From: an uncultured Candidatus Saccharibacteria bacterium
GTDB taxonomy: Bacteria > Patescibacteriota > Minisyncoccia > Sungbacterales > JACQCQ01
Direction: 5' to 3'
DNA: 64,000 nucleotides
NCBI GenBank assembly: GCA_964494945.1
Contig: CAZBTX010000002.1
Coordinates: 38,696-102,695, forward strand
The notes beneath the pieces are model-generated. The model saw only the letters and a list, made by a program, of their open reading frames with translations, did not search any database and was not told the origin of the DNA. This document shows positions 660 through 64,000 of the stretch, in pieces. The position numbers were made by a program, and so were the translations under genes. Position 1 is the first letter of the stretch, and every line of letters begins with the position of its first letter.

Positions 660-1523
660 ATGAGCACCTTAAAAGAGTTAAGCATACTAGACCCTTCGTA
701 CTCAAAACTTTTAAAAGAGACCCATTCAGCCCCGGAAAAACTTTTTGTCCGCGGGAATTTTAATATCAAACCCGATGATTGGACAATTGCTATTGTCGGT
801 ACTAGAAAGCCAACAGAATACGGCCGCACTATCGCGCGCCGTTTCGCCGAGGACCTGGCTCGCGCGGGTGCCGTGATTATCTCGGGGCTTGCCACCGGCA
901 TTGATAGCGAAGCGCACAGAGGAGCGTTAAAAGCCGGCGGCAAAACCGTGGCCGTCATCGGCTCGGGACTTGATCGCGCATCATTTTTCCCCAGTGCCAA
1001 TTGGTCGCTAGCCGAAACCATCGCTAAAGAAAACGGCACCGTGATTTCCGAATACGCAGAAGGCACGCCGGCTCTCCCTCATCACTTTCCCGAAAGAAAT
1101 AGAATTATCGCGGGATTATCCCAAGGCGTCATTGTAGTTGAGGCCCAGGAAAAAAGCGGGGCTTCCATTACCGCGCGCCTGGCGCTTGAAGAAAATCGGG
1201 ATGTTTTTGCCGTACCCGGCTCCATTTTTTCCCCCACCTCCGCCCTCCCCAACCGCCTTATAAAAGAAGGTGCAACCCCCATAACTTCGGCTGATGACGT
1301 TATGGATTTTTACGGCAAGACCAAATCAAGCATTCCGCCCGCTAATGGGTCATTTAACGGACTGGAAGCCATTATTATAGAAGCGCTCTCGGAACCAAGA
1401 ACGATTGATGACCTAAAACAGATGACTAAAGCCGAAACCGGCCCATTGCAGGCCTCGCTTTCGCTGTTGGAATTGAACGGGACTATCGCGGAAATCGCCC
1501 ATGGACAATATCAAAAAATTTGA
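660..1523 (+). CDS. dprA: DNA processing protein DprA (Smf)
   Basis: Rossmann-like DprA motifs GLATGIDSEAH, AVIGSGLD and FPERNRIIAGLS are present. The gene lies upstream of topA, the classic dprA-topA arrangement. Confidence 0.8.
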   Translation: MSTLKELSILDPSYSKLLKETHSAPEKLFVRGNFNIKPDDWTIAIVGTRKPTEYGRTIARRFAEDLARAGAVIISGLATGIDSEAHRGALKAGGKTVAVIGSGLDRASFFPSANWSLAETIAKENGTVISEYAEGTPALPHHFPERNRIIAGLSQGVIVVEAQEKSGASITARLALEENRDVFAVPGSIFSPTSALPNRLIKEGATPITSADDVMDFYGKTKSSIPPANGSFNGLEAIIIEALSEPRTIDDLKQMTKAETGPLQASLSLLELNGTIAEIAHGQYQKI

Positions 1524-1699: not shown

Positions 1700-3730
1700 A
1701 TGAACGTAGGAATGAAAGAAAAAAGTTTAGTCATCGTTGAGTCACCCACTAAAGCGCGTACTATCTCCGGATTTCTCGGGAGCAATTTTGTGATTGAATC
1801 AAGTTATGGGCACGTGCGGGACTTGCCTAAATCCAAGATCGGCATTGATTTTGAAAATAACTTTGAACCGAAATATATCGTCCCGCAAAAAGCCAAAGCC
1901 AACGTCAAAAAATTAAAGGAACTGGCAAAAAAAGCCAAAAATATAATTCTGGCAACCGACGAAGACCGCGAAGGCGAGGCTATCGCTTGGCATCTTATTT
2001 CGGCGCTGAATCTCGAAGATAAACCGGGAGGCAACATTCAGCGCATCGTGTTCCACGAAATTACCGAGCACGCCATCAAAGAGGCCATGGAAAGTCCTAG
2101 GGACTTGGACATGAAATTGATCAATGCCCAGCAGGCCCGCCGCATTTTGGATAGGATCGTGGGCTATAAATTATCACCGTTTTTGTGGAAAAAAGTAGCT
2201 CGTGGGCTTTCTGCCGGCCGGGTACAGTCGGTGACGGTCCGGCTTGTGGTGGAAAGAGAGCGCGAGATACAAAACTTTAAACCTGAAGAATACTGGTCTC
2301 TGGAGGCCGACCTCGAAACTGACGAAGGCGAAAAGTTTCGGGCCTATCTTACGAAATATCAAGGCAAGGCGGTTAGCAAACTGGATATTAAAAACGAGGC
2401 CGAAGCAAAACGCATCGCCGATGAGGCAAAAAAAACATCATGGATAGTCACCAACGTTGAGAAAAAAGCCAAGACCAGTTATCCCCTGCCGCCCTTCACC
2501 ACTTCCACTCTCCAGCAAGAGGCCTCGCGCCGTCTCGGTTTTTCCGCGAAGCAAACTATGGTTCTGGCCCAGCAGCTTTATGAAGGAGTAGATACCGGCA
2601 AGGGGCAAATGGGTTTAATTACTTACATGCGCACTGATTCGCTGAACTTGGCGCAATCTGCCGTGATTGATGCCGCTTCATTTATTAAAGAAGTTTTCGG
2701 CCAAAATTATGTTTTGCCCAAGCCCCGATTTTTCAAAACCAAATCCAAAGGCGCCCAGGAAGCGCACGAGGCCATTCGCCCCACGAATCCGCACTTAACG
2801 CCGGAACTTTTAAGGTCGCGTCTGGATAAGCGCCAATTGAAACTTTATGAACTGATTTGGCGCCGATTTGTGGCCACTCAAATGCCGGAAGCCGTATTTG
2901 ACGCTACCACGATTGACGTAAAAGCCGGTGAAGCAATTTTCCGGGCTACGGGACAGATCTTAAAATTTGACGGATTCCTCAAGGTCTATCCGACCAAAAC
3001 CGAAGAAGTTATACTCCCTGAAGTTTCACCCGAAGAAGAAGTAAAATTGGTTTCCCTTGATACCCTGCAGCATTTCACCGAGCCGCCGGCGAGATACACC
3101 GACGCGTCACTTATCAAAACCCTGGAAGCCGCCGGTGTCGGCCGCCCGTCCACTTACGCCCCGACGCTTTCCACCATTCAAAACCGGGGCTATGTGGAAA
3201 AAGACGAAAGAAAAAGATACCGCCCCACGGATATGGGCATTATGGTAAACGACTTATTGGTGGAGCACTTCCCGGAAGTCGTGGATATTGAGTTCACGGC
3301 AAAAATGGAGGAAGAGCTGGATGAGGTGGCTGAAGGCGTCAAAGCATGGCAGCCGGTCATTCGCGAATTTTACGAGCCCTTCTCGCGGCATCTCGAAACC
3401 AAATACGAAGAAGTGGAAAAACAAAACCACGATGAGGCCACGGATGAGGCCTGCGAAAAGTGCGGGAAACCCATGGTCATCAAGTTCGGCAGATTCGGGC
3501 GCTTCATGGCTTGCTCGGGTTTCCCCGAATGCAAAACAACCAAGAACATCAAAAAAGAAGTTGTTTCCACCGGGGTTAAATGCCCCAAATGCGGTGAGGG
3601 AGACATCGTACAAAGATTTACCAGAAAAAAGAGATTATTTTTCGGCTGCTCCAGATACCCCGACTGCGACTACGCCACCTGGACCAACCCCAACGACAAG
3701 AAAAAAGAAGAGCTAAAAACCGAGGAATAA
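1700..3730 (+). CDS. topA: DNA topoisomerase I
   Basis: TOPRIM N-terminus (VIVESPTKA, GHVRDLP), the topo IA core, and C-terminal CxxC zinc ribbons (CEKCGKPM, CPKCGEGD). An alternative start at 1712 is possible. Confidence 0.85.
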   Translation: MNVGMKEKSLVIVESPTKARTISGFLGSNFVIESSYGHVRDLPKSKIGIDFENNFEPKYIVPQKAKANVKKLKELAKKAKNIILATDEDREGEAIAWHLISALNLEDKPGGNIQRIVFHEITEHAIKEAMESPRDLDMKLINAQQARRILDRIVGYKLSPFLWKKVARGLSAGRVQSVTVRLVVEREREIQNFKPEEYWSLEADLETDEGEKFRAYLTKYQGKAVSKLDIKNEAEAKRIADEAKKTSWIVTNVEKKAKTSYPLPPFTTSTLQQEASRRLGFSAKQTMVLAQQLYEGVDTGKGQMGLITYMRTDSLNLAQSAVIDAASFIKEVFGQNYVLPKPRFFKTKSKGAQEAHEAIRPTNPHLTPELLRSRLDKRQLKLYELIWRRFVATQMPEAVFDATTIDVKAGEAIFRATGQILKFDGFLKVYPTKTEEVILPEVSPEEEVKLVSLDTLQHFTEPPARYTDASLIKTLEAAGVGRPSTYAPTLSTIQNRGYVEKDERKRYRPTDMGIMVNDLLVEHFPEVVDIEFTAKMEEELDEVAEGVKAWQPVIREFYEPFSRHLETKYEEVEKQNHDEATDEACEKCGKPMVIKFGRFGRFMACSGFPECKTTKNIKKEVVSTGVKCPKCGEGDIVQRFTRKKRLFFGCSRYPDCDYATWTNPNDKKKEELKTEE

Positions 3731-4751: not shown

Positions 4752-6509
4752 ATGCTTAATTCATACTATCACTTGAGATACATTCTCATGTCGTTCGCCG
4801 AACTCAAAGAAAAAATCATAAAAAATTACGACACTACCGACATTACGCTTGTTGAACGTGCCTACAAATTCGCCGAAAAAGTCCATGAAGGACAAACCAG
4901 GAAATCGGGGGACGCCTATATCACTCACCCTCTAGCCATAGCTTCGGCGCTGGCCGATCTAAAATTAGACCAAGCCACTATCGCGGCCGCGCTCTTGCAT
5001 GACGTTATAGAAGACGGAGGTGCTACGGAGGACGACGTTAAAAAAGAATTCGGCGAAGATGTGGCCTTCCTGGTGGAGGGCGTCACCAAGCTCGGCAAAC
5101 TGAAATACCGCGGCGCGGAGAGGATGGCTGAATCCTTGCGTAAAATGTTCTTGGCTACCGCCGAGGACATTCGCGTGGTTTTAATTAAACTGATGGATCG
5201 CGCGCACAATATGGAGACCTTAAGGGCTTTGCCGGAAGAAAAGCAAAAACGCATCGCCCTAGAGACCCTGGAGATCTACGCGCCGCTGGCGGATCGCCTG
5301 GGGCTGGGCCAGTTAAAAGCACGGCTGGAAGACCTGGCTTTCCCCTATGTTTATCCCGAAGAATACCAATGGCTGCAAAATAACGTAAAAGAGGCGTTTA
5401 AAGAAAGAGTAAAATACATTGAGCATATAATGCCGGTAGTGCGCGAGTTGCTTTCCAAAGAAAACATTCCGGTGCTCGCCATGGATGCTCGGGCCAAGCA
5501 CCAATACAGCTTGTGGAGAAAACTCGCGAAATTTGACATGGACGTTACAAAAATCAACGACCTCGTGGCCCTTCGCATCATTGTCCCCACCGTTTCCGAC
5601 TGTTATCAGGCATTAGGAGCAATTCATGCCGGGTGGCGTCCGCTCCCCGGGAAAATCAAGGACTATATTGCTTTACCTAAACCCAACGGATACAAATCGC
5701 TTCACACCACCGTTTTCGGGCCTGACGGCGAAATTGTGGAATTTCAAATTAGGACCGAGGAAATGCATGAGGAAGCCGAGCATGGCATCGCGGCGCACTG
5801 GGCTTATAACGAACATAAAAAGACCAAAGGATATAAAACATCAGCGCCGTCCGAGGCCGACAAAGACAAGATACATTGGGTAAGCCAGTTAAAGGACTGG
5901 CAAAAAGACGTGCCCGACCCCAATGAATTCCTGAATTCCCTGAAAATTGAATTCTTCAAAAACCGCATCTTCGTTCTGACTCCCAAAGGAGACGCGATTG
6001 ACTTGCCGGAGGGCGCTACCGCGCTGGATTTTGCATACCATGTGCATTCTCAAATCGGGGATACCGCCTCGGGGGCTAGGGTTAACGGCAAAATGGTGCC
6101 ATTAAATCATGAGCTCTCCAATTTTGACGTGGCGGAAATAATTACGCAAAAAAATAAAAAGCCGAGCGCGGATTGGTTGGGGTTCGTAAAAACCTCCATG
6201 GCGCGCCGCCACATCACGTCCAAAATTCGCCGGGCCGAAGAAGACCGCAGATTTTCCGAGCATCAGGGTAAACAAATGGTGGAAGTCAGGGTTATCGCCA
6301 AAGATCGCGTGGGCTTGGTTAATGATCTAACAGCTGTTGTGGCTTCATTCAAGATCAACATTAAAGGCATGCGTACAGAAAGAGGTGAGCGTAGCCATCC
6401 TTTGGTTTTAATGAACTGCCCAGTAAAATCCAACGACGAAATGAGAAAACTCCTGATGAAATTAAAGAGCGTAAGGGGCGTGGAGGAAGTGGGTTATAGG
6501 ATTATCTAG
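4752..6509 (+). CDS. rel: bifunctional (p)ppGpp synthetase/hydrolase Rel/SpoT family
   Basis: HD domain (HDVIEDG), RelA/SpoT synthetase domain (NGYKSLHTTV), TGS domain (IFVLTPKGD) and C-terminal ACT domain. The true start may be at 4788 (MSFAELKEK). Confidence 0.8.
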   Translation: MLNSYYHLRYILMSFAELKEKIIKNYDTTDITLVERAYKFAEKVHEGQTRKSGDAYITHPLAIASALADLKLDQATIAAALLHDVIEDGGATEDDVKKEFGEDVAFLVEGVTKLGKLKYRGAERMAESLRKMFLATAEDIRVVLIKLMDRAHNMETLRALPEEKQKRIALETLEIYAPLADRLGLGQLKARLEDLAFPYVYPEEYQWLQNNVKEAFKERVKYIEHIMPVVRELLSKENIPVLAMDARAKHQYSLWRKLAKFDMDVTKINDLVALRIIVPTVSDCYQALGAIHAGWRPLPGKIKDYIALPKPNGYKSLHTTVFGPDGEIVEFQIRTEEMHEEAEHGIAAHWAYNEHKKTKGYKTSAPSEADKDKIHWVSQLKDWQKDVPDPNEFLNSLKIEFFKNRIFVLTPKGDAIDLPEGATALDFAYHVHSQIGDTASGARVNGKMVPLNHELSNFDVAEIITQKNKKPSADWLGFVKTSMARRHITSKIRRAEEDRRFSEHQGKQMVEVRVIAKDRVGLVNDLTAVVASFKINIKGMRTERGERSHPLVLMNCPVKSNDEMRKLLMKLKSVRGVEEVGYRII

Positions 6510-7335: not shown

Positions 7336-8349
7336 TTAAAGTGACACCCCGCGTTCTTTTAGCACCTTATCAATGATGGCGCGTAGTTCTTCGTCGGAAT
7401 AAAACTCAATTACTATCTTGCCCCGGTCGCCAATCTTTTGCACTTGAACTTTTGTTCCCAGCATTTCTTGCAGTTTGGACTGCCAATCGCGGGTTTCCGG
7501 GTCTCCAGGCGAGCCGAAGCGTTTGCGCGGTTTTAATTCCCTGCCTGAAAGACGGCGTGCTGACATTTCAGCATCTCTTACCGAAAGCTTAGAATTGATA
7601 ATTTCCTCGTAGAGCGCTCTCCGCTGGTCCTCACCGTCACCCGCCATCAGAATCGCCCGGGCGTGCCCCTCGGTTATTTCACCTTTGGCGATGGCGTCCT
7701 GCATATCCAGAGGCAACGACAAAAGGCGCAGAGTATTGGCCACCATTTCCCGGGACTTGCCGACTCTTTCGGCCACTTCTCTTTGCATCAGCTTGAAATC
7801 ATCAATCAACTGTCGGAAGGCTCTGGCGCGATCAATGGGACTTAGATCTTCGCGCTGGACATTCTCAATCAGCGCCAGTTCAAGCTTCATCCGCGCTTGG
7901 GGCTCCTTTTTGATAATGACCGGCACCTGATCCATCCCGGCCATGGCTGCCGCCCGCCATCGCCTCTCCCCCGCGATTAACTGATATTTTGTCTCAAGGC
8001 CCCGCGGCGTTTCCACTTCCACCCGGGAAACAATTATAGGTTGCAGCATCCCGTGAGTTTTCAGCGAATCGGCCAGATCTTTAAGAGCCGCTTCGTCAAA
8101 TTCGCGTCTGGGCTGATAGGGATTGGGTTCTATGCGGGAACGTTCTATCCAAAAAATACTTTCGTGCGCGCGGCGTTCGGTTAAGGGAGCTTCGGGTATT
8201 TCGGCTGATGGCGTGGTAAACCCCCACACCTTTTCTGGTTTCGCGGGAAAGGGTGTGGGGGTAAAACCCGCGGGTGGTCCGGCGGGCGCGGATGATTCCG
8301 AGGGTTCGGGGCCTTGTTTGATTGGATTTTGAGAAATTTCTCCTTCCAT
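7336..8349 (-). CDS. parB: ParB/Spo0J-like partition protein with Pro-rich N-terminal extension
   Basis: ParB N-domain motif GERRWRAA and HTH region ALIENVQREDLSPID are present. About 100 aa of Pro/Ser-rich extension precedes them. No parA is adjacent. Confidence 0.7.
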   Translation of the reverse strand: MEGEISQNPIKQGPEPSESSAPAGPPAGFTPTPFPAKPEKVWGFTTPSAEIPEAPLTERRAHESIFWIERSRIEPNPYQPRREFDEAALKDLADSLKTHGMLQPIIVSRVEVETPRGLETKYQLIAGERRWRAAAMAGMDQVPVIIKKEPQARMKLELALIENVQREDLSPIDRARAFRQLIDDFKLMQREVAERVGKSREMVANTLRLLSLPLDMQDAIAKGEITEGHARAILMAGDGEDQRRALYEEIINSKLSVRDAEMSARRLSGRELKPRKRFGSPGDPETRDWQSKLQEMLGTKVQVQKIGDRGKIVIEFYSDEELRAIIDKVLKERGVSL

Positions 8350-9916: not shown

Positions 9917-9956
9917 GTACTCACAGGACAATTCTATAGAATTGTCCTGTGAGTAC
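9917..9956. repeat. 40-bp perfect palindrome (18-bp arms around TATA)
   Basis: gtactcacaggacaattc-tata-gaattgtcctgtgagtac, followed by a second short palindrome ggagtcggactcc. Confidence 0.8.
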
Positions 9957-12835: not shown

Positions 12836-13117
12836 TTAACTCAGGGCCAGGCCTTCGGAACATATTGCCGCAGTCTACGGCAACAAAGAAGAAACTAACC
12901 CCTTAACTCCCTCTTTGTTGCCGTAGAATATAGCTTATTTTAGGGTGCTAAGTTTCTAGTTGAATAGTAGCATATATATAGAAAAAGTCAAGGGGCCATG
13001 CCTCGTGGCGCAAAATGCGCCGTAAGGCAACCAAAACGTACGAAAAAGTGCGCGAGTTCCAAGCAGTACTCCGCGCCCTCAATCCCCCGTCCCGCTTGTA
13101 GTGGGAGCGGGGAGTTG

Positions 13118-13713: not shown

Positions 13714-13745
13714 ACTGTATCAGTAGGACGTCCTACTGATACAGT
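13714..13745. promoter_or_regulatory. 32-bp perfect palindrome with TAGGACGTCCTA core upstream of PAP2 gene
   Basis: actgtatcagtaggac/gtcctactgatacagt. Lies between the yerC-like stop and the PAP2 start. Confidence 0.5.
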
Positions 13746-13804: not shown

Positions 13805-14185
13805 CTAGCTTCTTATCTGTGCCGACGCGCCCAGAATCCGTTCTACTGCTTTGATCACTTGTTGGCCCTGTGACTCTTTAAAGAACTGACTAAACACCTT
13901 CCGATAACCTTCGCCTGACTTAAAAAGTTCCCGTTGAATAATGTGCACGGTAGTTTTGCTTATTTTCAGAACACGGCATATCGCGCCGTAACTATAACCA
14001 TGTTGCAGCAACACTGCTACCATCAGCCGTTTGGCCAGCATAATTTTTTCGGTATGGGTAAGAAGATTATCGAGGAAGCGGCGCAGTGGCTTCTCGTCGT
14101 TAATCTTCGCAAGAGTCCTCACAAGAGCGTCGGCGATCTGATGCTCCATCTCGCGTGAAAGCTGATTTTGAGATACTTTAGGCAT
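13805..14185 (-). CDS. TrpR-like DNA-binding protein YerC/YecD family
   Basis: C-terminal HTH GYSYGAICRVLKISKTTVHIIQR is typical of the YerC family. Confidence 0.6.
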   Translation of the reverse strand: MPKVSQNQLSREMEHQIADALVRTLAKINDEKPLRRFLDNLLTHTEKIMLAKRLMVAVLLQHGYSYGAICRVLKISKTTVHIIQRELFKSGEGYRKVFSQFFKESQGQQVIKAVERILGASAQIRS

Positions 14186-14210: not shown

Positions 14211-14240
14211 ACTGTTACAATAGGACGTCCTACTGTAACG
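14211..14240. promoter_or_regulatory. near-perfect palindrome with the same TAGGACGTCCTA core in the yerC-like promoter region
   Basis: actgttacaataggacgtcctactgtaacg. One arm mismatch. Confidence 0.5.
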
Positions 14241-40332: not shown

Positions 40333-40383
40333 GGTTAGAAATCTAACACGAAAATTTTAACTAGACAAAGCCCCTGACAAATT

Positions 40384-40465
40384 TATTCTATGTACTCTAT
40401 TTTGGTACTCTATTCCAACTGTTAATACCCTATGCTATGCTATAGCATGACATAGAGTACATAGA
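40384..40465. repeat. composite palindrome: 16-bp TIRs around ATGCTATAGCAT core
   Basis: attctatgtactctat ... atagagtacatagaat with a central tatgctatagcatg. Confidence 0.6.
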
Positions 40466-40470
40466 ATAAA

Positions 40471-41076
40471 ATGGGTATAGACAAGCATGGCAGGGTTAGC
40501 TATATCATGATGACGCGGAAGGGAGAAATTGCGAGATTAATATTGGGGATTCTCGCGGGGGCTGGAGTAGTTTTAGTCGCGGCCACGCTCCCCGGACTCG
40601 CGGTAGCGCTGAAGCCGTTCGCGCGAAAGAAAAACAAGCATCTTGAAAAACAAAGTCTTGAGCGAGCCCTCCGGCGCCTTTGCCAAAGACGACTGGTTGA
40701 ATTAGTGCCTGACCGCAATGGCAACTTTTCGCTGTTAGTCACCAAACTTGGTAAAAAACATCTCAAGAAACTGGACTTCGAGAGTTTAAAGCTTAAAATC
40801 CCAGAATATTGGGACGGAAAGTGGAGTGTGATACTTTTTGATATACCGGAATCGCGCAAAGCGGCTCGTAATGCGCTCCAACGAAAATTAAAAGAGATGG
40901 GCTGTTTCCAACTCAACAAAAGTGTGCTTGTACACCCCAGTGACTGTGAGGATGAGATAGATTTCACCAGTGAAATACTTGGGATCAGAAACTATGTAAT
41001 AACTTTTCAAACAACGTCTTTGGGACACCAAGAACATCGGGCCTTACACCACTTTAAGTTAAAACCGAGATCATAA
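40471..41076 (+). CDS. membrane-anchored winged-helix protein with Cas2/VapD-like C-terminal domain (tentative)
   Basis: N-terminal TM helix, a wHTH-like LERALRRLCQRRLVELV, then WSVILFDIPESRKAARNALQRKLKEMGCFQLNKSVLV, which resembles the Cas2 beta-alpha-beta core. Confidence 0.4.
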   Translation: MGIDKHGRVSYIMMTRKGEIARLILGILAGAGVVLVAATLPGLAVALKPFARKKNKHLEKQSLERALRRLCQRRLVELVPDRNGNFSLLVTKLGKKHLKKLDFESLKLKIPEYWDGKWSVILFDIPESRKAARNALQRKLKEMGCFQLNKSVLVHPSDCEDEIDFTSEILGIRNYVITFQTTSLGHQEHRALHHFKLKPRS

Positions 41077-41136
41077 CAAAGACTTTAACTACAAATCGAC
41101 AACATCAAAAAACACACCGCATACGTTCTACACACT

Positions 41137-41174
41137 CCTACCCTATACCATGCTATAGCATGGTATAGGGTAGG
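41137..41174. repeat. 38-bp perfect palindrome with ATGCTATAGCAT core
   Basis: cctaccctataccatgctatagcatggtatagggtagg. Confidence 0.8.
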
Positions 41175-41200
41175 AATTGGTCTTATTCACTTTATGTGAA

Positions 41201-56225: not shown

Positions 56226-56267
56226 CCGGCCGCTCTCCTCGGGGAGAGCGGCCGGACTCACTTTTTA
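56226..56267. terminator. bidirectional rho-independent terminator
   Basis: 13-bp stem ccggccgctctcc/ggagagcggccgg with a T-run. Confidence 0.6.
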
Positions 56268-57649
56268 ATATCTTTTTTCTTTTTCAACACCGCTTGGTTT
56301 TCTTGGTCGGCCCTAGGTTGGTAATATTTCCTCCCGCGCAATTTCTCCGGCAAATGTTCCTGCGAAACTTTAGCATCCAAAAAATCATGGGCATATTTAT
56401 ATCCTTTGTGATATCCCAGATCTTTCATGAGCTTAGTTACCGCATTCCTTAAATGTAGCGGGACGGGCAAAGCGCCGTGTTCTTTTGCGTCAGACAACGC
56501 GGCCAAAAGTCCAGTATACGAAGCGTTGGACTTCGGCGCCAAAGCCAGATAGGTCGCGCCGTGCGCTAAGTTGATCATGGCTTCCGGCATCCCCACATGC
56601 TCCACGGCTTCTGCTACAGCAATAGCTACCACTAATGCCGTTGGCAGGGCGTTTGAAATATCTTCCGAGGCAAAAATTATCATGCGGCGCGCAATGAATC
56701 TCGGGTTTTCTCCCGCCTCCACCATGCGCGCGAGCCAATACAAAGCCCCGTCCGGATCCGAATCGCGCATGGATTTGATGAAGGCCGAGATGACGTTATA
56801 ATGCTCCTCGCCTTTTTTGTCGTATCTTATGGCTTTTTTCTGGAGGGCATCCTCCACCATCTTTTTTGTAATCTTTATACTCTTAGCGGCATCTTTGCTC
56901 ACCGTCTTATTCTCTAATTCGCGCGAATTAGAGAATGCGGTATTCGGGGTGGAGAGAACAATAAATTCCAGCGCATTCAGCGCCACTCTAGCATCTCCGT
57001 CGGCAAATCCAATCACAGCGTGCTTGGCGTCCTCGTCCAACTTGGCCTTGCGCGTTCCTAATCCACGCGCCAAGTCGGAAAGTGCTCTATCAATAATATT
57101 TTCAAGCGCATCATCAGTAAGCGGTTCTAAAACCAAAACCATGGAACGGGAAAGTAGAGGCGAGTTAAGTTCAAAAGAAGGATTTTCGGTGGTGGCACCG
57201 ATTAAAATAATCGTGCCGTTTTCCACGTAAGGCAAAAAGGTGTCCTGCTGGGCTTTGTTGAAGCGGTGGATCTCGTCAACGAATAAAATGGTTTTGCGTT
57301 TTTCAAACTTCAGTCGCCTTTTGGCGTCTTCAATCAGTTTGCGCAGCTCCGGGACGCCGGAAGTGGCCGCCGAAAACGGCTGAAAAAATCCTTTGGTCTT
57401 TTCCGCGATGATGCGCGCCAGCGTAGTTTTGCCGGTTCCCGGCGGACCCCACAAAATCACCGACCGCAACTCGTCTTTTTCAATGGCTGTTCGCAAGGGC
57501 TTCCCCTTCCCCACAATCTCATCCTGCCCGTGAAAATCGCCGAAATCCCGCGGCCGCATGCGCTCGGCCAACGGCTCCATGCCTTTTATATTTTCTTCAA
57601 ATAAGTCAGTCACAGTGAAACTATTATACTCCCGCCGTCCCGAAGGCAT
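56258..57649 (-). CDS. rarA: replication-associated recombination protein A (AAA+ ATPase) carrying in-frame palindromic insertion
   Basis: GPPGTGKTT Walker A and MgsA_C region. An FSNSRELEN insert is encoded by the 28-bp palindrome. Confidence 0.75.
   Translation of the reverse strand: MPSGRREYNSFTVTDLFEENIKGMEPLAERMRPRDFGDFHGQDEIVGKGKPLRTAIEKDELRSVILWGPPGTGKTTLARIIAEKTKGFFQPFSAATSGVPELRKLIEDAKRRLKFEKRKTILFVDEIHRFNKAQQDTFLPYVENGTIILIGATTENPSFELNSPLLSRSMVLVLEPLTDDALENIIDRALSDLARGLGTRKAKLDEDAKHAVIGFADGDARVALNALEFIVLSTPNTAFSNSRELENKTVSKDAAKSIKITKKMVEDALQKKAIRYDKKGEEHYNVISAFIKSMRDSDPDGALYWLARMVEAGENPRFIARRMIIFASEDISNALPTALVVAIAVAEAVEHVGMPEAMINLAHGATYLALAPKSNASYTGLLAALSDAKEHGALPVPLHLRNAVTKLMKDLGYHKGYKYAHDFLDAKVSQEHLPEKLRGRKYYQPRADQENQAVLKKKKDIKK
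56909..56936. repeat. 28-bp perfect palindromic element inside rarA
   Basis: attctctaattcgcgcgaattagagaat. Confidence 0.85.
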
Positions 57650-57726
57650 ATCAGGTAGTAGAAATTCGAACAAGCAACCACTTGTTCGCCGTAAGCTAAC
57701 ACTCGGATTTTCACTACCCGGCATAT
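57647..57726. mobile_element. MITE-like element abutting rarA start codon
   Basis: TIRs catatcaggtagtagaaattcgaac and ctcggattttcactacccggcatat around an inner gaacaag/cttgttc hairpin. Confidence 0.55.
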
Positions 57727-58580: not shown

Positions 58581-58626
58581 GCTCCCTACTCTATCTTATG
58601 CTATAGCATAAGATAGAGTAGGGAGC
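58581..58626. repeat. 46-bp perfect palindrome with ATGCTATAGCAT core
   Basis: gctccctactctatcttatgctatagcataagatagagtagggagc, between convergent genes. Confidence 0.8.
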
Positions 58627-59265: not shown

Positions 59266-59303
59266 GCGTACCCCCTCCCACTACGATACTCTAGAGTATC
59301 GTA
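59266..59303. repeat. 38-bp perfect palindrome (TCTAGA core)
   Basis: cctcccactacgatactctagagtatcgtagtgggagg. Confidence 0.8.
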
Positions 59304-59314
59304 GTGGGAGGAAT

Positions 59315-60250
59315 TTACGAACGCGAAAGGGCTTTACGTTTTTCTATGGCGGCCAGCAGTGCCTCGCGAATGCCGTCAGTTGAATATCCATAGGTCGGAT
59401 AGCCGCCGATCTGTGCCGAACCCTCCGCTGGTTTTTTAGGATCTATATAAGTATCGTGAAAATCAGTACCGGCGGTTTTTAGTATCTTATATTTCTCCGA
59501 TAGTGTTATCAAGAATTCCGTGCCATCCTCATCAGCATTTGAAAAAACTTCAATGCCATCTAGTCCTTGCTCCAAAAACTTGCCAAGAGTTTCTTCAACT
59601 AATTTATATAATTGATTTTTATCTTTTATAACCATGCCCATGGGTATAAGCGGATGCGACCAAATCGCGACACCCCCCGCTTCGTGTATTACTTCGGCCG
59701 CTTCTTCGGGTGTTAGCGAACTATGAGATACAAAAACACTCTTCGGGGCCTCATCCGCTAAATAAGCGTTGAAAAGATCCTGCCGAGTTACGATGTTTTC
59801 TGTTCGCAGTTTCTCTACATTCGCGGGATTTTCCATGATTTCCTCCGCGACATGTACACGGCTTATGACTCCCTTAGCTCTTTTATTCACCGCCTCAAAT
59901 TCCACCGCGAAACCATAACGCTTCAGATTTTCTATGCCGTTTTGGGCGCGCGTTTCCCGCGCACGCTTAAAATCTCCTAGTATTTGTAAAAGGCGCTGAT
60001 GGCTACAATCAATCCCAAACCCCAGAATATGAATTCCCCATTTTTCATACTCACACGAAAGTTCAATCCCCGGTATCACCTCCATACCAAGTTCCTTCCC
60101 GGCCTCCAATGCTTCATTAATGCCGCCAACCGTGTCGTGGTCGGTGATGGCTATGCTTAAAACGTCGTTCTCTTTCGCCATTTTCACGCATTCCCGCGGA
60201 GAAAACTTGCCATCGGAAGCGGTAGTTTGAATTTGATAATCAATTACCAT
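59315..60250 (-). CDS. PHP-domain phosphoesterase
   Basis: N-terminal ITDHDTVGG motif. Confidence 0.6.
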   Translation of the reverse strand: MVIDYQIQTTASDGKFSPRECVKMAKENDVLSIAITDHDTVGGINEALEAGKELGMEVIPGIELSCEYEKWGIHILGFGIDCSHQRLLQILGDFKRARETRAQNGIENLKRYGFAVEFEAVNKRAKGVISRVHVAEEIMENPANVEKLRTENIVTRQDLFNAYLADEAPKSVFVSHSSLTPEEAAEVIHEAGGVAIWSHPLIPMGMVIKDKNQLYKLVEETLGKFLEQGLDGIEVFSNADEDGTEFLITLSEKYKILKTAGTDFHDTYIDPKKPAEGSAQIGGYPTYGYSTDGIREALLAAIEKRKALSRS

Positions 60251-60343
60251 GGTTCTTAGTTTCTAGTTTTAATTTACAGTTGTTAGTTTCTTGTTTTAGT
60301 ACAGAAAACTAAAACCAAAAACTAAGAACCAAGAACTGAGCCG

Positions 60344-60763
60344 TTAGACAAACTCTGGCACAAACTCGGCTTCCCAGTGATGCAACTTAGTTCGCTGAAT
60401 TCCGCTACCCACAAGCGCCACGGCGTGAATCTCTTCTTCTACATGGTCAATATGCTTCCCTATAAGTTCGCATTCAATTTCTTTGTCGGAAAAATGAATA
60501 ATATCCATCGCGGAAAATACCGCATTATGCATCTCATTCTCAAATATCACGTTATCCAAGAATTCCCCCAGAAGATCTGAAAGATTCTTGCCATGTGTGT
60601 GCGCCCTAACTCTTACCGTCTTTCGATTTTCCGGTGCGACATCAGGCCGCAGAAGCGCCGCCAAGCCCAAAAGAGCGTTGCCAAAAAGTTCGCGTTCCGA
60701 TGAACCCCAGACCCTAACGCGGGTAACGCCGTCTTTACCAAAAATATCGTATTTCAACTGCAT
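60344..60763 (-). CDS. archease-like protein (tentative)
   Basis: About 140 aa with an archease-like pattern. Confidence 0.35.
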   Translation of the reverse strand: MQLKYDIFGKDGVTRVRVWGSSERELFGNALLGLAALLRPDVAPENRKTVRVRAHTHGKNLSDLLGEFLDNVIFENEMHNAVFSAMDIIHFSDKEIECELIGKHIDHVEEEIHAVALVGSGIQRTKLHHWEAEFVPEFV

Positions 60764-63047: not shown

Positions 63048-63932
63048 CTATACCACCTTGCGGGCGAGTTGGTAGAGCGCGTACCAAATCGGCCGGAAAA
63101 CCACATCAAAAGCAAGAGGATGAGTCTTAGACGTTCCGCCGAATCCTTTTTTGAAACGGGAGATGCCGGGCCACTTAATTTCATCAATACCCCACAAGTC
63201 ATAGGTGGCGCATCCGCGCCTTCTGGCTTCCTGTATAATCCGCCAGTGCAGGAGATACGGCGCCATCACGTTTCGCAATTCGTAATTTGAAGCGCCGTGA
63301 AGGTAAGTAGCCGTTCCTTTGTAAAAATTCACCAGAGCCGCCGCCGCGACTTCTTTTTTGTAAACTGCAAAAAACAATCTATTCTCTAATTCGCGCGAAT
63401 TAGAGAATAATAAATGCTCGTAGTGCGATTTGGGATGCAAATGAAAGCCATCACGCTTGGCGGTTGCGGAAAGCAGCTTGTAAAACTCTTCAACCGCCTC
63501 CGTGCCGCGCTCTTCTACCGCCACCCCGTGCCGCTCGGCGACTCGTATGTTGTATCGCGTTTTTTCGTGCATACCGCGAAGCAGTTCATCATCGGATTTT
63601 GTCAGATCAATCAAAACCGTCTCCCGCGGCTGTAGATTCAGCGCCGGAGATACTTTCAAATTACTTGTCGCTTGTCGCTTGTCGCCTGTCGCCAATTCAT
63701 TTTCTGGCTCAACGCGAATAAAGATTGGACTATCGGGGAGCGCCCTTAATGCTTTGAAAAATCCCTCGACATTTTTAATTTCCGGCCGTGGGCAGTACCA
63801 ATAAAAAAATCCGAATGGCAAATTGTGTTTGAAGAAAACCGCCGATTCACTACCAAAGACGAGACGATGGGTCTCCCGCCCATCCAGTTTCTGAATTTCT
63901 TCCCATTCTTTGTACTGCAAAAATGATGGCAT
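63048..63932 (-). CDS. FemAB-family peptidoglycan bridge-formation protein carrying in-frame palindromic insertion
   Basis: YLHGASNYELRNVMAPYLLHW is FemAB-like. An FSNSRELEN insert is encoded by the 28-bp palindrome. Confidence 0.5.
   Translation of the reverse strand: MPSFLQYKEWEEIQKLDGRETHRLVFGSESAVFFKHNLPFGFFYWYCPRPEIKNVEGFFKALRALPDSPIFIRVEPENELATGDKRQATSNLKVSPALNLQPRETVLIDLTKSDDELLRGMHEKTRYNIRVAERHGVAVEERGTEAVEEFYKLLSATAKRDGFHLHPKSHYEHLLFSNSRELENRLFFAVYKKEVAAAALVNFYKGTATYLHGASNYELRNVMAPYLLHWRIIQEARRRGCATYDLWGIDEIKWPGISRFKKGFGGTSKTHPLAFDVVFRPIWYALYQLARKVV
63381..63408. repeat. 28-bp palindromic element inside FemAB-like gene
   Basis: attctctaattcgcgcgaattagagaat, identical to the rarA copy. 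Confidence 0.85.
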
Positions 63933-63942
63933 CCCTACCTAT

Positions 63943-63970
63943 CTTCTCTAATTCGCGCGAATTAGAGAAG
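63943..63970. repeat. intergenic copy of the palindromic element upstream of FemAB-like start
   Basis: cttctctaattcgcgcgaattagagaag. The 26-bp core is identical. Confidence 0.85.
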
Positions 63971-64000
63971 GTGAGTTATATACTTTACTGGCGGTTTTGG

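What the first reader, a model, noticed from the sequence alone, without database searches (positions are those of the whole stretch)
63381..63970. Two more copies of the palindromic element: one in-frame in the FemAB-like gene, one in its 5' spacer
An identical 28-mer at 63381-63408 encodes LFSNSRELENRLFF inside the FemAB-like ORF. A third copy (26-bp core identical) at 63943-63970 lies about 10 bp upstream of that gene's start. So three copies fall in 64 kb, two genic in the permissive frame and one intergenic. The element is proliferating and is compatible with coding sequence.
Basis: seen in the sequence. Interest (0 to 1): 0.65.

Follow-up and report, generated by a model that had tools for sequence, protein, structure and literature searches.

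The report
Conserved palindromic operator of Patescibacteria
The repeated 26-base palindrome is real, but it is most likely the binding site of a small ArsR-family regulator found across candidate-phyla-radiation bacteria, with some sites written into protein-coding sequence, and not a freshly multiplying jumping element.

Summary
TTCTCTAATTCGCGCGAATTAGAGAA occurs exactly three times in the window (56910, 63382, 63944), against 0 expected. Two copies lie in intact genes (RarA, FemAB) in the only stop-free frame, and one lies 11 nt before the FemAB start.

The "proliferating mobile element" reading is only partly supported:
- All three copies are old and shared with orthologous loci whose proteins are 61-85% identical.
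- The FemAB copy occupies native codons with no length change. The same is true in Dus, cysteine desulfurase and Mpg genes elsewhere.
- Only the RarA copy is part of a true insertion (+21 aa).
- There are no target-site duplications.

The 22-nt core occurs in more than 118 stretches of Patescibacteria genomes. It is tightly linked to an 85-93 aa ArsR/SmtB-family winged-helix gene:
- In 80 loci chosen by that gene alone, the core sits upstream in 70 of 76 testable loci and at or after the stop in 65 of 78.
- The window's last 39 nt look like the C-terminus of this gene, with its stop codon inside copy C.
- The 12-2-12 geometry is the classic ArsR/SmtB operator layout.

Best reading: a conserved operator and regulator pair. 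Binding is inferred from genomic association, not shown. Insertions, centre-nested hairpins and palindrome extension remain unexplained.

The parts
63944..63969 (.). Copy C of the 26-bp palindrome (12-2-12 inverted repeat), 11 nt upstream of the FemAB ATG. It overlaps the apparent stop codon of an ArsR-like gene that runs off the window end.
   Evidence: Exact match. A related site sits at the same position in front of femAB in L119, L120/L121 and L122/L123. In 31 of 67 regulator-anchored downstream sites the core begins 2 nt after the end of the protein match, so the site's left arm covers the last codons and the stop.
63382..63407 (.). Copy B, inside FemAB. It is translated on the minus strand as FSNSRELEN and occupies native codons with no length change.
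   Evidence: The exact 26-mer also occurs in orthologue P0004, a 1-mismatch version in P0002, and 17 of 27 matching bases in P0003.
56910..56935 (.). Copy A, inside RarA/MgsA, translated as FSNSRELEN in the variable linker between the AAA lid and the MgsA_C domain.
56897..56947 (-). Approximate 51-nt block (12 + 27 + 12) forming the core of the +21 aa insertion that separates RarA of P0121-P0127 from the closest site-free orthologues. In relatives it is a 40-50 bp palindrome.
   Evidence: Protein alignment and codon comparison. The boundaries are approximate.
63048..63932 (-). FemAB-family peptidoglycan bridge-formation gene (294 aa), intact. It carries copy B and lies downstream of copy C.
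   Evidence: Pfam FemAB E=3.9e-37 and Acetyltransf_6 E=4.2e-16. 99-100% coverage alignments.
56258..57724 (-). RarA/MgsA recombination-associated AAA+ ATPase gene, intact. It carries copy A.
   Evidence: Pfam MgsA_C E=1e-62, AAA_assoc_2 and AAA. Homologues.
63962..64000 (-). Probable last 12 codons plus stop (PKPPVKYITHLL*) of the ArsR/SmtB-like regulator gene, cut off by the window end. The TAA stop lies inside copy C.
   Evidence: Translation. The C-termini of family members end ...SIIHLL...QIVHLL and ...PVLSLL. The same gene directly precedes femAB in L121, L161, L167 and L195. This is an inference from 13 codons only.

Best explanation
The palindrome is most likely the DNA operator of a small (85-93 aa) ArsR/SmtB-family winged-helix regulator that is conserved across many Patescibacteria (CPR) lineages. 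Its layout is 12-2-12: TTCTCTAATTCG-CG-CGAATTAGAGAA, with the most conserved core being ATTCGCGCGAAT. A protein dimer would bind the two arms.

The regulator gene is typically bracketed by two sites:
- One lies 20-60 nt before its start, over the -35 region of its own promoter, which suggests autoregulation.
- One lies at or just after its stop codon, in front of the next gene.

In this window:
- Copy C is that second site. It sits between the regulator gene, whose last codons are visible at the window edge, and femAB. It would control the femAB and Mur-ligase gene string.
- Copy B is an additional site written into native FemAB codons. It arose in place in a small Sungbacteria clade.
- Copy A entered RarA as part of a roughly 50-60 nt palindromic insertion in a tolerant linker, and has been kept since.

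Sites inside genes survive only in the one stop-free frame, hence the recurrent peptide FSNSRELEN.

Shown: the sequence, copy number, distribution, gene association, positions, the in-place versus inserted status of copies, and conservation.

Inferred: that this protein binds this site, that binding represses or activates transcription, and that intragenic copies are functional.
For: (1) Geometry. The element is a perfect 12-2-12 inverted repeat. By established knowledge of the SmtB/ArsR family, this is the operator layout of those repressors.

(2) Association found in palindrome-anchored loci. The ArsR-like gene lies within 86 bp of an exact copy in 15 of the 18 loci that hold a strong match to it, and is bracketed by two exact copies in L049, L054, L062 and L070.

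(3) Independent test. In 80 metagenome loci chosen only by the protein, ATTCGNNCGAAT lies within 150 nt upstream in 70 of 76 loci and at or after the stop in 65 of 78. Elsewhere there are 30 occurrences in 255 kb. Best 26-mer matches are listed.

(4) Protein family. NCBIfam NF033788 (ArsR/SmtB) scores 56.2 against a cutoff of 55. Pfam HTH_5 and HTH_20 pass their cutoffs. The nearest solved relatives are HlyU, NolR, SrnR and PagR. The putative recognition helix LSFKATSKHL is nearly invariant, which matches the near-invariant site core.

(5) Promoter context of the upstream site. TATAAT-like hexamers are enriched 22-25 nt after the core (24 occurrences in 61 upstream regions; sequences).

(6) Long-term conservation at orthologous positions. 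The host proteins are only 55-71% identical, and the flanking DNA is 42-71% identical.

(7) In-place origin without length change in FemAB, cysteine desulfurase, Dus and Mpg. This is expected for a selected site, not for an inserting element.

(8) Recurrent neighbours. femAB and cysteine desulfurase recur directly downstream of the regulator gene.

(9) The same architecture appears twice more in the window. A Trp_repressor-family gene and a PaaX-like gene are each bracketed by their own private palindrome family.
Against: - No binding experiment exists; the link rests on genomic association only.
- About a third of exact copies are inside genes (44 of 129). Exact palindromes in general show no fixed-distance -10 element, so most copies are not obviously promoter-linked.
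- No clear conserved regulon emerged. Neighbours of the regulator gene are very variable.
- A dimer-operator model does not explain three observations. Outer flanks of intergenic copies are self-complementary beyond the consensus. A 30-nt GC-rich hairpin can sit exactly in the centre with both arms kept. RarA acquired the site as a 50-60 nt palindromic insertion.
- The regulator gene itself was not found inside the window. Its presence just beyond the edge rests on 13 codons.
Confidence: 0.6

Rival explanations
1. It is a selfish miniature palindromic element, like Rickettsia palindromic elements or a minimal MITE made only of its terminal inverted repeats. It inserts into genomes, including in-frame into genes, and is spread by horizontal transfer. 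The ArsR-like gene flanked by two copies would be its cargo or helper.
For: - RarA carries a true +21 aa insertion containing the site. TatD and TsaD copies lie in lineage-specific extra segments.
- Copies occur at many non-orthologous places in many lineages with an identical 22-26 nt core.
- Split versions exist with intact arms and 23-32 nt of other DNA in the centre.
- The regulator gene bracketed by two copies sits in very variable genomic contexts.
- In relatives, the femAB upstream spacer holds either a lone site or site-gene-site. This would fit gain or loss of a cassette by recombination between sites.
Against: - Four gene families carry the site with no added length.
- No target-site duplication: flanks are inverted in 16 cases and direct in 1.
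- No transposase or RAYT-like gene was seen nearby (motif scan). An 88-aa winged-helix protein is not a known transposase.
- None of the three window copies is shown to be recent. Counterparts of the two femAB-locus copies persist in all three orthologous loci examined, and the RarA copy is shared by a clade at 80-85% identity.
- Density is low: about 8 of 118 loci of up to 8 kb hold a second exact copy.
- There are 0 matches in viral contigs.
Confidence: 0.2
2. The functional unit is a nucleic-acid hairpin, not a duplex protein site. It could be an RNA stem-loop (identical whichever strand is transcribed) acting in termination, processing or mRNA stability, or a DNA cruciform or hairpin recognised by a structure-specific protein.
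For: - The predicted hairpins are stable, at -14 to -16 kcal/mol with z down to -6.3.
- Outer flanks of intergenic copies are complementary well above a permutation control: 0.93/0.81/0.70/0.59/0.52 against 0.67/0.53/0.50/0.36/0.30.
- Symmetric double changes keep the palindrome (L127 G..C; L010, L017 and L090).
- Arms are kept when a GC-rich hairpin is nested in the centre.
- Intergenic copies lie somewhat nearer the upstream gene's stop than the downstream start, and are more frequent between convergent genes (18) than divergent genes (7).
- Other long perfect palindromes fill intergenic spacers of this window.
Against: - No T-tract follows most copies, and there is no Rfam family.
- The regulator's own upstream sites are often asymmetric (left arm plus core plus GGTAGAAT) and show little covariation above control. 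This argues for sequence recognition, not structure recognition.
- Genic copies show no excess flank symmetry.
- Excess symmetry could be a mutational by-product, since template switching perfects quasi-palindromes (established knowledge).
Confidence: 0.12
3. It is a chromosome-level signal such as a centromere-like (parS/NBS-type) site or a DNA-uptake sequence for natural competence.
For: - Sites of those kinds are conserved across wide taxa, tolerate coding positions and arise in place.
- The window encodes ParB and DprA and has no canonical parS.
- The three copies cluster within 7 kb.
Against: - The site is linked to the ArsR-like gene, not to parB, which lies about 49 kb away in the window.
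- Three copies in 64 kb is far below the density of uptake sequences.
- 26-32 bp of specificity is unlike known uptake sequences.
- No origin markers were seen, and GC skew is monotonic across the window.
Confidence: 0.04

Closest known systems
SmtB/ArsR-family repressors and their 12-2-12 inverted-repeat operators (e.g. SmtB at smtA, CzrA, CadC; non-metal members HlyU, NolR, PagR, BigR)
   Same: A small homodimer-type winged-helix protein of this family. A 26-bp 12-2-12 inverted repeat. A site in the regulator's own promoter region. A site placed before neighbouring genes.
   Different: No conserved Cys/His metal ligands appear in the alignment. The site core is conserved almost base-for-base across very divergent lineages. 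Exact sites are embedded in frame in housekeeping genes. A second site usually overlaps the regulator's stop codon. Binding is untested.
CIRCE/HrcA (and similar phylum-spanning operator-repressor pairs such as NrdR boxes)
   Same: An inverted-repeat operator conserved nearly unchanged over very large evolutionary distances, together with its repressor. It may also act as an RNA hairpin.
   Different: Different sequence, protein family and target genes. CIRCE is 9-N9-9, sits upstream of chaperone operons and is not known inside coding regions.
Rickettsia palindromic elements (RPEs) and other in-frame MITEs
   Same: Palindromic repeat copies inside intact protein-coding genes, read through in a permissive frame, placed in tolerant surface segments. 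The RarA copy is a real insertion.
   Different: RPEs are about 100-150 bp and always add residues. Here the unit is 26-32 bp and at least four host families show no added length. There are no target-site duplications. The consistent genomic partner is a transcription-factor gene.
REP/REPIN elements with RAYT transposases
   Same: Short, dispersed palindromes able to form hairpins, mostly intergenic, often near gene 3' ends.
   Different: REPs are extragenic, imperfect and species-specific, with a linked Y1-transposase gene. Here a third of copies are genic, the core is conserved across lineages, and no such gene was seen.

Membership tests
ArsR/SmtB operator-regulator pair | Inverted repeat with 12-2-12 (about 26 bp) geometry | tested here: met
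   TTCTCTAATTCG-CG-CGAATTAGAGAA, perfect in all three window copies.
ArsR/SmtB operator-regulator pair | Cognate regulator is a member of the ArsR/SmtB winged-helix family | tested here: met
   NCBIfam NF033788 scores 56.2 bits against a cutoff of 55. Pfam HTH_5 scores 28.9 (cutoff 22) and HTH_20 scores 31.3 (cutoff 27). Nearest PDB relatives are HlyU, NolR and PagR.
ArsR/SmtB operator-regulator pair | Site located in the regulator's own promoter region (autoregulation) and/or before adjacent target genes | tested here: met
   The core lies within 150 nt upstream in 70 of 76 protein-anchored loci, and at or after the stop in 65 of 78. Spacing to the start is mostly 30-60 nt. -10-like hexamers lie 22-25 nt after the core.
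ArsR/SmtB operator-regulator pair | Direct, sequence-specific binding of the protein to the repeat, and release by an effector | not testable with these tools
   This needs EMSA, DAP-seq or footprinting.
ArsR/SmtB operator-regulator pair | Metal-sensing ligand sets (alpha3N Cys pair or alpha5 His/Asp/Glu). These define the metalloregulator subgroup only. | tested here: not met
   The invariant columns of alignment A2 contain no Cys and only one His, in the SKHL helix. The protein therefore resembles the non-metal members.
Rickettsia-palindromic-element-like in-frame mobile repeats | Copy adds residues relative to orthologues lacking it (a true insertion) | tested here: inconclusive
   Met for RarA at +21 aa, TsaD at +6 aa, and TatD, where the copy lies inside a 49-aa extra segment. 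Not met for FemAB, cysteine desulfurase, Dus and Mpg.
Rickettsia-palindromic-element-like in-frame mobile repeats | Repeat unit of about 100-150 bp with a family consensus over its whole length | tested here: not met
   The shared consensus is only about 32 bp (cTATTCTCTAATTCGCGCGAATTAGAGAATAg). Flanks beyond that differ between copies.
MITE / DNA transposon derivative | Target-site duplication flanking terminal inverted repeats; related autonomous element with a transposase | tested here: not met
   No direct repeats of 3 nt or more. For flanking dinucleotides that are not self-complementary, 16 are inverted and 1 is direct. TA..TA flanks (39 copies) cannot be told apart from palindrome extension. 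No transposase was seen near copies, although neighbouring genes were not scanned exhaustively.
REP/REPIN-RAYT | Extragenic location and a linked Y1 (HUH) transposase gene | tested here: not met
   44 of 129 copies are genic. No HUH motif hit was found in the window, which is only a weak test.
parS / ParB centromere | Match to the parS consensus and clustering by parB/origin | tested here: not met
   The sequence is unrelated to TGTTTCACGTGAAACA, and the only near-parS in the window has 3 mismatches. parB is at 7336-8349, about 49 kb away.
DNA uptake sequence | Short motif at very high density (about 1 per kb) | tested here: not met
   3 copies in 64 kb. About 8 of 118 loci of up to 8 kb hold a second exact copy.

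The most novel reading that the evidence does not exclude
The palindrome may be a self-propagating operator. On this reading, a transcription-factor binding site, together with its small ArsR-like gene as a site-gene-site cassette, spreads within and between Patescibacteria genomes. Spread would occur by hairpin- or palindrome-mediated insertion and by short-patch conversion that overwrites chance look-alike sequences, including codons of housekeeping genes. The same genomes also grow palindromes outward (flank symmetrisation) and inward (centre-nested GC hairpins). This would be a new way for regulatory sites to colonise streamlined genomes and proteins.
Probability: 0.2. Interest if true: 0.85.

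Novelty: new member of a known kind. Interest (0 to 1): 0.6.

Why it matters
Almost nothing is known about transcriptional regulation in the candidate phyla radiation, because most members are uncultivated.

- **A testable entry point.** A base-for-base conserved 12-2-12 site with an identifiable small ArsR-family partner, found from Sungbacteria to records labelled Saccharibacteria, could be synthesised and tested by EMSA or DAP-seq.
- **Candidate targets.** The genes that recur next to the site or the regulator include femAB and Mur-ligase cell-wall genes, a cysteine desulfurase, and a family of large CxxC proteins.
- **An annotation warning.** The recurrent peptide FSNSRELEN in unrelated proteins (RarA, FemAB, Dus, TatD, TsaD, MurD, Tgt, Fmt, Mpg) reflects a DNA-level signal, not a protein motif.
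- **An open question on palindrome dynamics.** These genomes show insertion of whole palindromes, nested centre inserts, and symmetric flank extension around several different operator-like cores. This is unexplained and could bear on how genomes that may lack hairpin-cleaving nucleases tolerate long perfect palindromes.

Tried and rejected
- **Target-site duplications.** None of 3 nt or more. Flanks are inverted, not direct.
- **Rfam.** On 54-64 kb of the window at E up to 1, only sub-threshold miRNA-like hits appeared, on other long hairpins. Nothing matched at the three copies.
- **Viral contigs.** 0 matches to the 22-mer.
- **Literature.** Full-text searches for the sequence, the peptide SNSRELE, and Patescibacteria plus palindrome/ArsR/regulon returned nothing relevant.
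- **Canonical parS.** Absent from the window.
- **Motif scan of the window's six-frame translation.** Scanned for transposase, recombinase, DnaA and other motifs. Only ParB was found.
- **Sigma-70 consensus scan around femAB.** No promoter-like site. The intragenic copy plus the TTTTTT of the Phe-Phe codons scores as terminator-like, which I regard as coincidental.
- **Split arms far apart.** Looked for the two arms separated by hundreds to thousands of bases, as for a larger element with these ends. The only such pairs were separate sites flanking the regulator gene.
- **Window contig beyond base 64000.** Tried to fetch it through the FemAB protein, but it is not on record. The regulator search did not return a protein from the 127,769-bp contig.
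- **Lineage-specific change in regulator specificity.** Considered as an explanation for flank covariation, and rejected. Copies within one MAG differ in their outer arms, and the recognition helix is unchanged where operator variants occur.
Full report
**1. The observation**

The 26-mer TTCTCTAATTCGCGCGAATTAGAGAA is present exactly three times in the window, at 56910-56935, 63382-63407 and 63944-63969. There are no further matches even at 3 mismatches, and none in 100 shuffles. The more general core ATTCGYRCGAAT finds the same three places only.

Copies A and B share a 28-mer. Copy B is a perfect 30-bp palindrome, and copy C has a C/G outer pair.
- Copy B lies in a 294-aa FemAB-family ORF (63048..63932, minus strand).
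- Copy A lies in a 488-aa RarA/MgsA ORF (56258..57724, minus strand).
- Copy C ends 11 nt before the FemAB ATG.

Both genic copies are read as FSNSRELEN. The other two frames contain TAA and TAG on either strand, so this is the only frame that can survive in a gene. Each copy can fold into a 12-13 bp hairpin (-14 to -16 kcal/mol, z = -4.2 to -6.3).

**2. Where else it occurs**

All are Patescibacteria/CPR MAGs or records of that size class. The labels include Sung-, Yanofsky-, Vogel-, Wolfe-, Kaiser-, Lipton-, Niyogi-, Nomura-, Portnoy-, Staskawicz- and Veblenbacteria, Paceibacterota and Saccharibacteria. It is absent from viral contigs, from Rfam and from the searchable literature. The window itself is from a Candidatus Sungbacteria MAG.

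Of 129 exact copies:
- 44 are in long ORFs, always in the open frame.
- The rest are intergenic: 51 between tandem genes, 18 between convergent genes, 7 between divergent genes.

Genic copies recur at the same codon position in several families from different lineages:
- cysteine desulfurase (8 loci)
- Dus (7 loci)
- TatD (5 loci)
- RarA and TsaD
- MurD-type ligases (identified by Pfam) and genes I read as Tgt, Fmt and Mpg from motifs in the translated peptides (Mpg confirmed).

The host proteins are only 55-71% identical, and the 45+45 nt flanks only 42-71% identical.

**3. Insertion or not**

*FemAB.* All 120 closest homologues have the same length at this point. FSNSRELENR simply takes the place of the family's xxRSxxFSNE segment. 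At the DNA level:
- The exact 26-mer is present in orthologue P0004.
- A one-mismatch version is in P0002.
- P0003 has 17 of 27 matching bases, with the family-typical FSNE.

So the perfect site arose in place in a small clade.

*Other families, from PDB alignments.* The alignments show no added residues in cysteine desulfurase (VSNSRELEN aligns with AKEEMATEM of E. coli IscS), Dus or Mpg.

*RarA.* This is different. P0121-P0127 (80-85% identical) carry +21 aa relative to the next relatives (72-79%). Codon comparison shows that the added DNA was a palindrome of about 50 nt centred on the 26-mer. L127 still has a 40-bp perfect palindrome, in which the outermost core pair changed on both sides together, T..A to G..C.

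*TsaD and TatD.* TsaD has +6 aa, and the TatD copies lie inside a 49-aa lineage-specific segment.

*Target-site duplications.* None were found. When the flanking dinucleotide is not self-complementary, the two sides are inverted in 16 cases and direct in 1.

**4. Age of the window copies**

A site is present in the spacer in front of femAB in L119, L120/L121 and L122/L123, whose FemAB proteins are only 61-64% identical. It differs by one or two mismatches, or has a decayed right arm. A counterpart of the FemAB-internal copy is present in all three relatives, decayed in one (17 of 27 bases), and the RarA copy is shared by a clade. Nothing indicates recent multiplication in this genome.

**5. 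The partner gene**

I clustered the genes around the 129 copies. One small protein stood out: an 85-93 aa winged-helix protein with consensus ...LKALANxRRLAILxYLK...VGEIAxxIKLSFKATSKHL.... It lies within 86 bp of an exact copy in 15 of the 18 loci that hold a strong match to it. Two exact copies bracket it in L049, L054, L062 and L070.

It belongs to the ArsR/SmtB family. It passes NCBIfam NF033788 and Pfam HTH_5/HTH_20, and its nearest solved relatives are HlyU, NolR, SrnR and PagR. Every organism named in the source annotations of its homologues, and in the genome records that carry it, is a Patescibacteria lineage or an unclassified "bacterium" MAG.

To remove the ascertainment bias, I fetched 80 metagenome loci selected only by this protein:
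- The core ATTCGNNCGAAT is within 150 nt upstream in 70 of 76 testable loci.
- It is at or just after the stop in 65 of 78 loci.
- Elsewhere there are 30 occurrences in 255 kb.
- In 31 of 67 downstream sites, the gene's last codons and stop (..CTC TAA) are the left arm of the site.

The upstream site is often asymmetric (TTCTCTAATTCGCGCGAAT-GGTAGAAT). TATAAT-like hexamers are enriched 22-25 nt after the core, which places the site over the -35 region of the gene's promoter.

femAB directly follows this gene in L121, L161, L167 and L195, and a cysteine desulfurase follows it in six loci.

In the window, the 39 nt after copy C, read on the minus strand, give PKPPVKYITHLL*. This resembles the family's C-termini (...SIIHLL...QIVHLL...PVLSLL), and the stop lies inside copy C. 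The regulator gene therefore probably lies just beyond base 64000. This is an inference from 13 codons.

**6. Parallels inside the window**

Two other small regulator genes show the same layout with their own private palindromes:
- A Trp_repressor-family gene (13805..14185, minus strand) is bracketed by TAGGACGTCCTA-centred palindromes at 14221 and 13724.
- A PaaX-like gene (40471..41076, plus strand) is bracketed by ATGCTATAGCAT-centred palindromes at 40437 and 41150, with a third at 58598.

Each core has fewer than 0.1 matches expected by chance. In these families too, a 12-bp conserved core sits inside 26-46 bp palindromes that are perfect or nearly so and whose outer arms differ between copies.

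**7. Best explanation**

The element is a 12-2-12 operator of a conserved ArsR/SmtB-type regulator.
- Copy C is the site between the regulator gene and femAB.
- Copy B is an extra site evolved in place in FemAB codons.
- Copy A was acquired by RarA within a palindromic insertion.

The geometry matches the family's classic operators (established knowledge of SmtB/ArsR repressors). The gene association, positions and conservation are tool results. The binding itself and its regulatory consequence are inferred.

**8. What this does not explain**

- Intergenic exact copies have outer flanks that are complementary well above a permutation control (for example 0.93/0.81/0.70/0.59/0.52 against 0.67/0.53/0.50/0.36/0.30). 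Genic copies do not show this.
- In RarA of P0122, P0126 and P0127, a 30-nt GC-rich segment sits exactly in the palindrome centre (FSNS|RLHQGFGGQA|RELE) with both arms kept. The close relative P0124 lacks it. Similar centre-nested GC hairpins occur at L035 and L103 and at several regulator-flanking sites.
- These observations point either to selection on a hairpin, or to mutational behaviour of palindromes: template-switch perfection and extension, and centre breakage and repair. The RarA case shows that whole palindromes can be inserted.

I therefore keep a selfish-element reading (0.2) and a hairpin-function reading (0.12) as live rivals. They are not mutually exclusive with the operator model.

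**9. Comparison with known systems**

In function, the closest systems are ArsR/SmtB operator-repressor pairs. For breadth of conservation, the closest are CIRCE/HrcA-type pairs. In appearance, the genic copies resemble Rickettsia palindromic elements, but the defining RPE features (100-150 bp units, obligatory added residues) are not met. REP/RAYT, parS and uptake-sequence memberships also fail on tested features (see the membership table).

I found no description of this motif or regulon in the searchable literature. I therefore rate it a new member of a known kind, with unusual in-frame intragenic sites and unexplained palindrome dynamics.

**10. Limits**

- All palindrome-anchored copies were selected for an exact 22-mer, so their perfect conservation is partly by construction.
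- My gene calls in fetched loci are simple ORF calls.
- Taxon labels of some TPA assemblies may be unreliable.
- The regulator search in the protein database was limited by its word index (157 candidates).
- No experiment links the protein to the site.

Noticed in passing
window 13714-13745 and 14214-14239, flanking ORF 13805..14185 (-): A Trp_repressor-family small HTH gene is bracketed by two palindromes that share the core TAGGACGTCCTA. One lies 36 nt upstream of its ATG and one about 60 nt after its stop. There are only two copies in the window, against 0.08 expected. This is the same site-gene-site layout as the ArsR-like gene.
   Followed up: partly
window 40382-40470 and 41136-41175, flanking ORF 40471..41076 (+); third copy at 58581-58626: A PaaX-like regulator gene (PaaX_M Cas2-like domain) is bracketed by palindromes with the core ATGCTATAGCAT. 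Two of the three (40 and 46 bp) are perfect; the upstream copy is imperfect. The outer arms differ between copies but are self-complementary. There are three copies, against 0.06 expected.
   Followed up: partly
window 9917-9956, 59274-59311, 60239-60340, 8211-8271, 12874-12927: Further long hairpins or palindromes, most of them in short intergenic spacers. They comprise a 40-bp and a 38-bp perfect palindrome, a hairpin of about 100 nt between 59315..60250 and 60344..60763, and two imperfect ones; the one at 8211-8271 lies inside the parB ORF (7336..8349). Rfam gives only sub-threshold miRNA-like hits. Long perfect palindromes appear to be a general feature of this genome.
   Followed up: partly
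L124:1091-1146, L125:1679-1734 (RarA orthologues); L035:4825-4871; L103:3826-3878: GC-rich hairpin-like segments of 23-32 nt (often CCTG...CAGG) are inserted exactly in the centre of the palindrome, with both arms preserved. In RarA the segment is translated (RLHQGFGGQA). A very close relative (L127) lacks it, which implies either precise loss or repeated site-specific gain.
   Followed up: partly
L005, L009, L074, L083, L089, L108, L130 and others: Tandem arrays of paralogous proteins of about 560-610 aa, with an N-terminal CxxC...CxxC zinc-ribbon-like segment and no Pfam family. Palindrome copies often lie in the spacers between them. This is the most frequent downstream neighbour of the ArsR-like gene (11 of 80 loci).
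   Followed up: no
window 660-1523 (+), 1700-3730 (+), 4752-6509 (+), 7336-8349 (-): By their sequence motifs (not checked against profile libraries), the window appears to encode DprA (competence DNA-processing protein), topoisomerase I, a RelA/SpoT-like protein and ParB. No canonical parS site lies within the 64 kb; the best match has 3 mismatches.
   Followed up: no
L104:147-1307: A reverse-transcriptase-domain ORF (Pfam RVT_1, E=4e-24) carries an in-frame copy of the palindrome (LSNSRELES).
   Followed up: no
L118:2510 and 3317; L044 versus L060; L068 versus L073: Some copies share extended flanks. L118 has two copies 807 bp apart with identical left flanks. Two contigs of one MAG, L044 and L060, have similar flanks. 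L068 and L073 have identical flanks in two differently labelled MAGs. This suggests local duplications or recently shared DNA.
   Followed up: no
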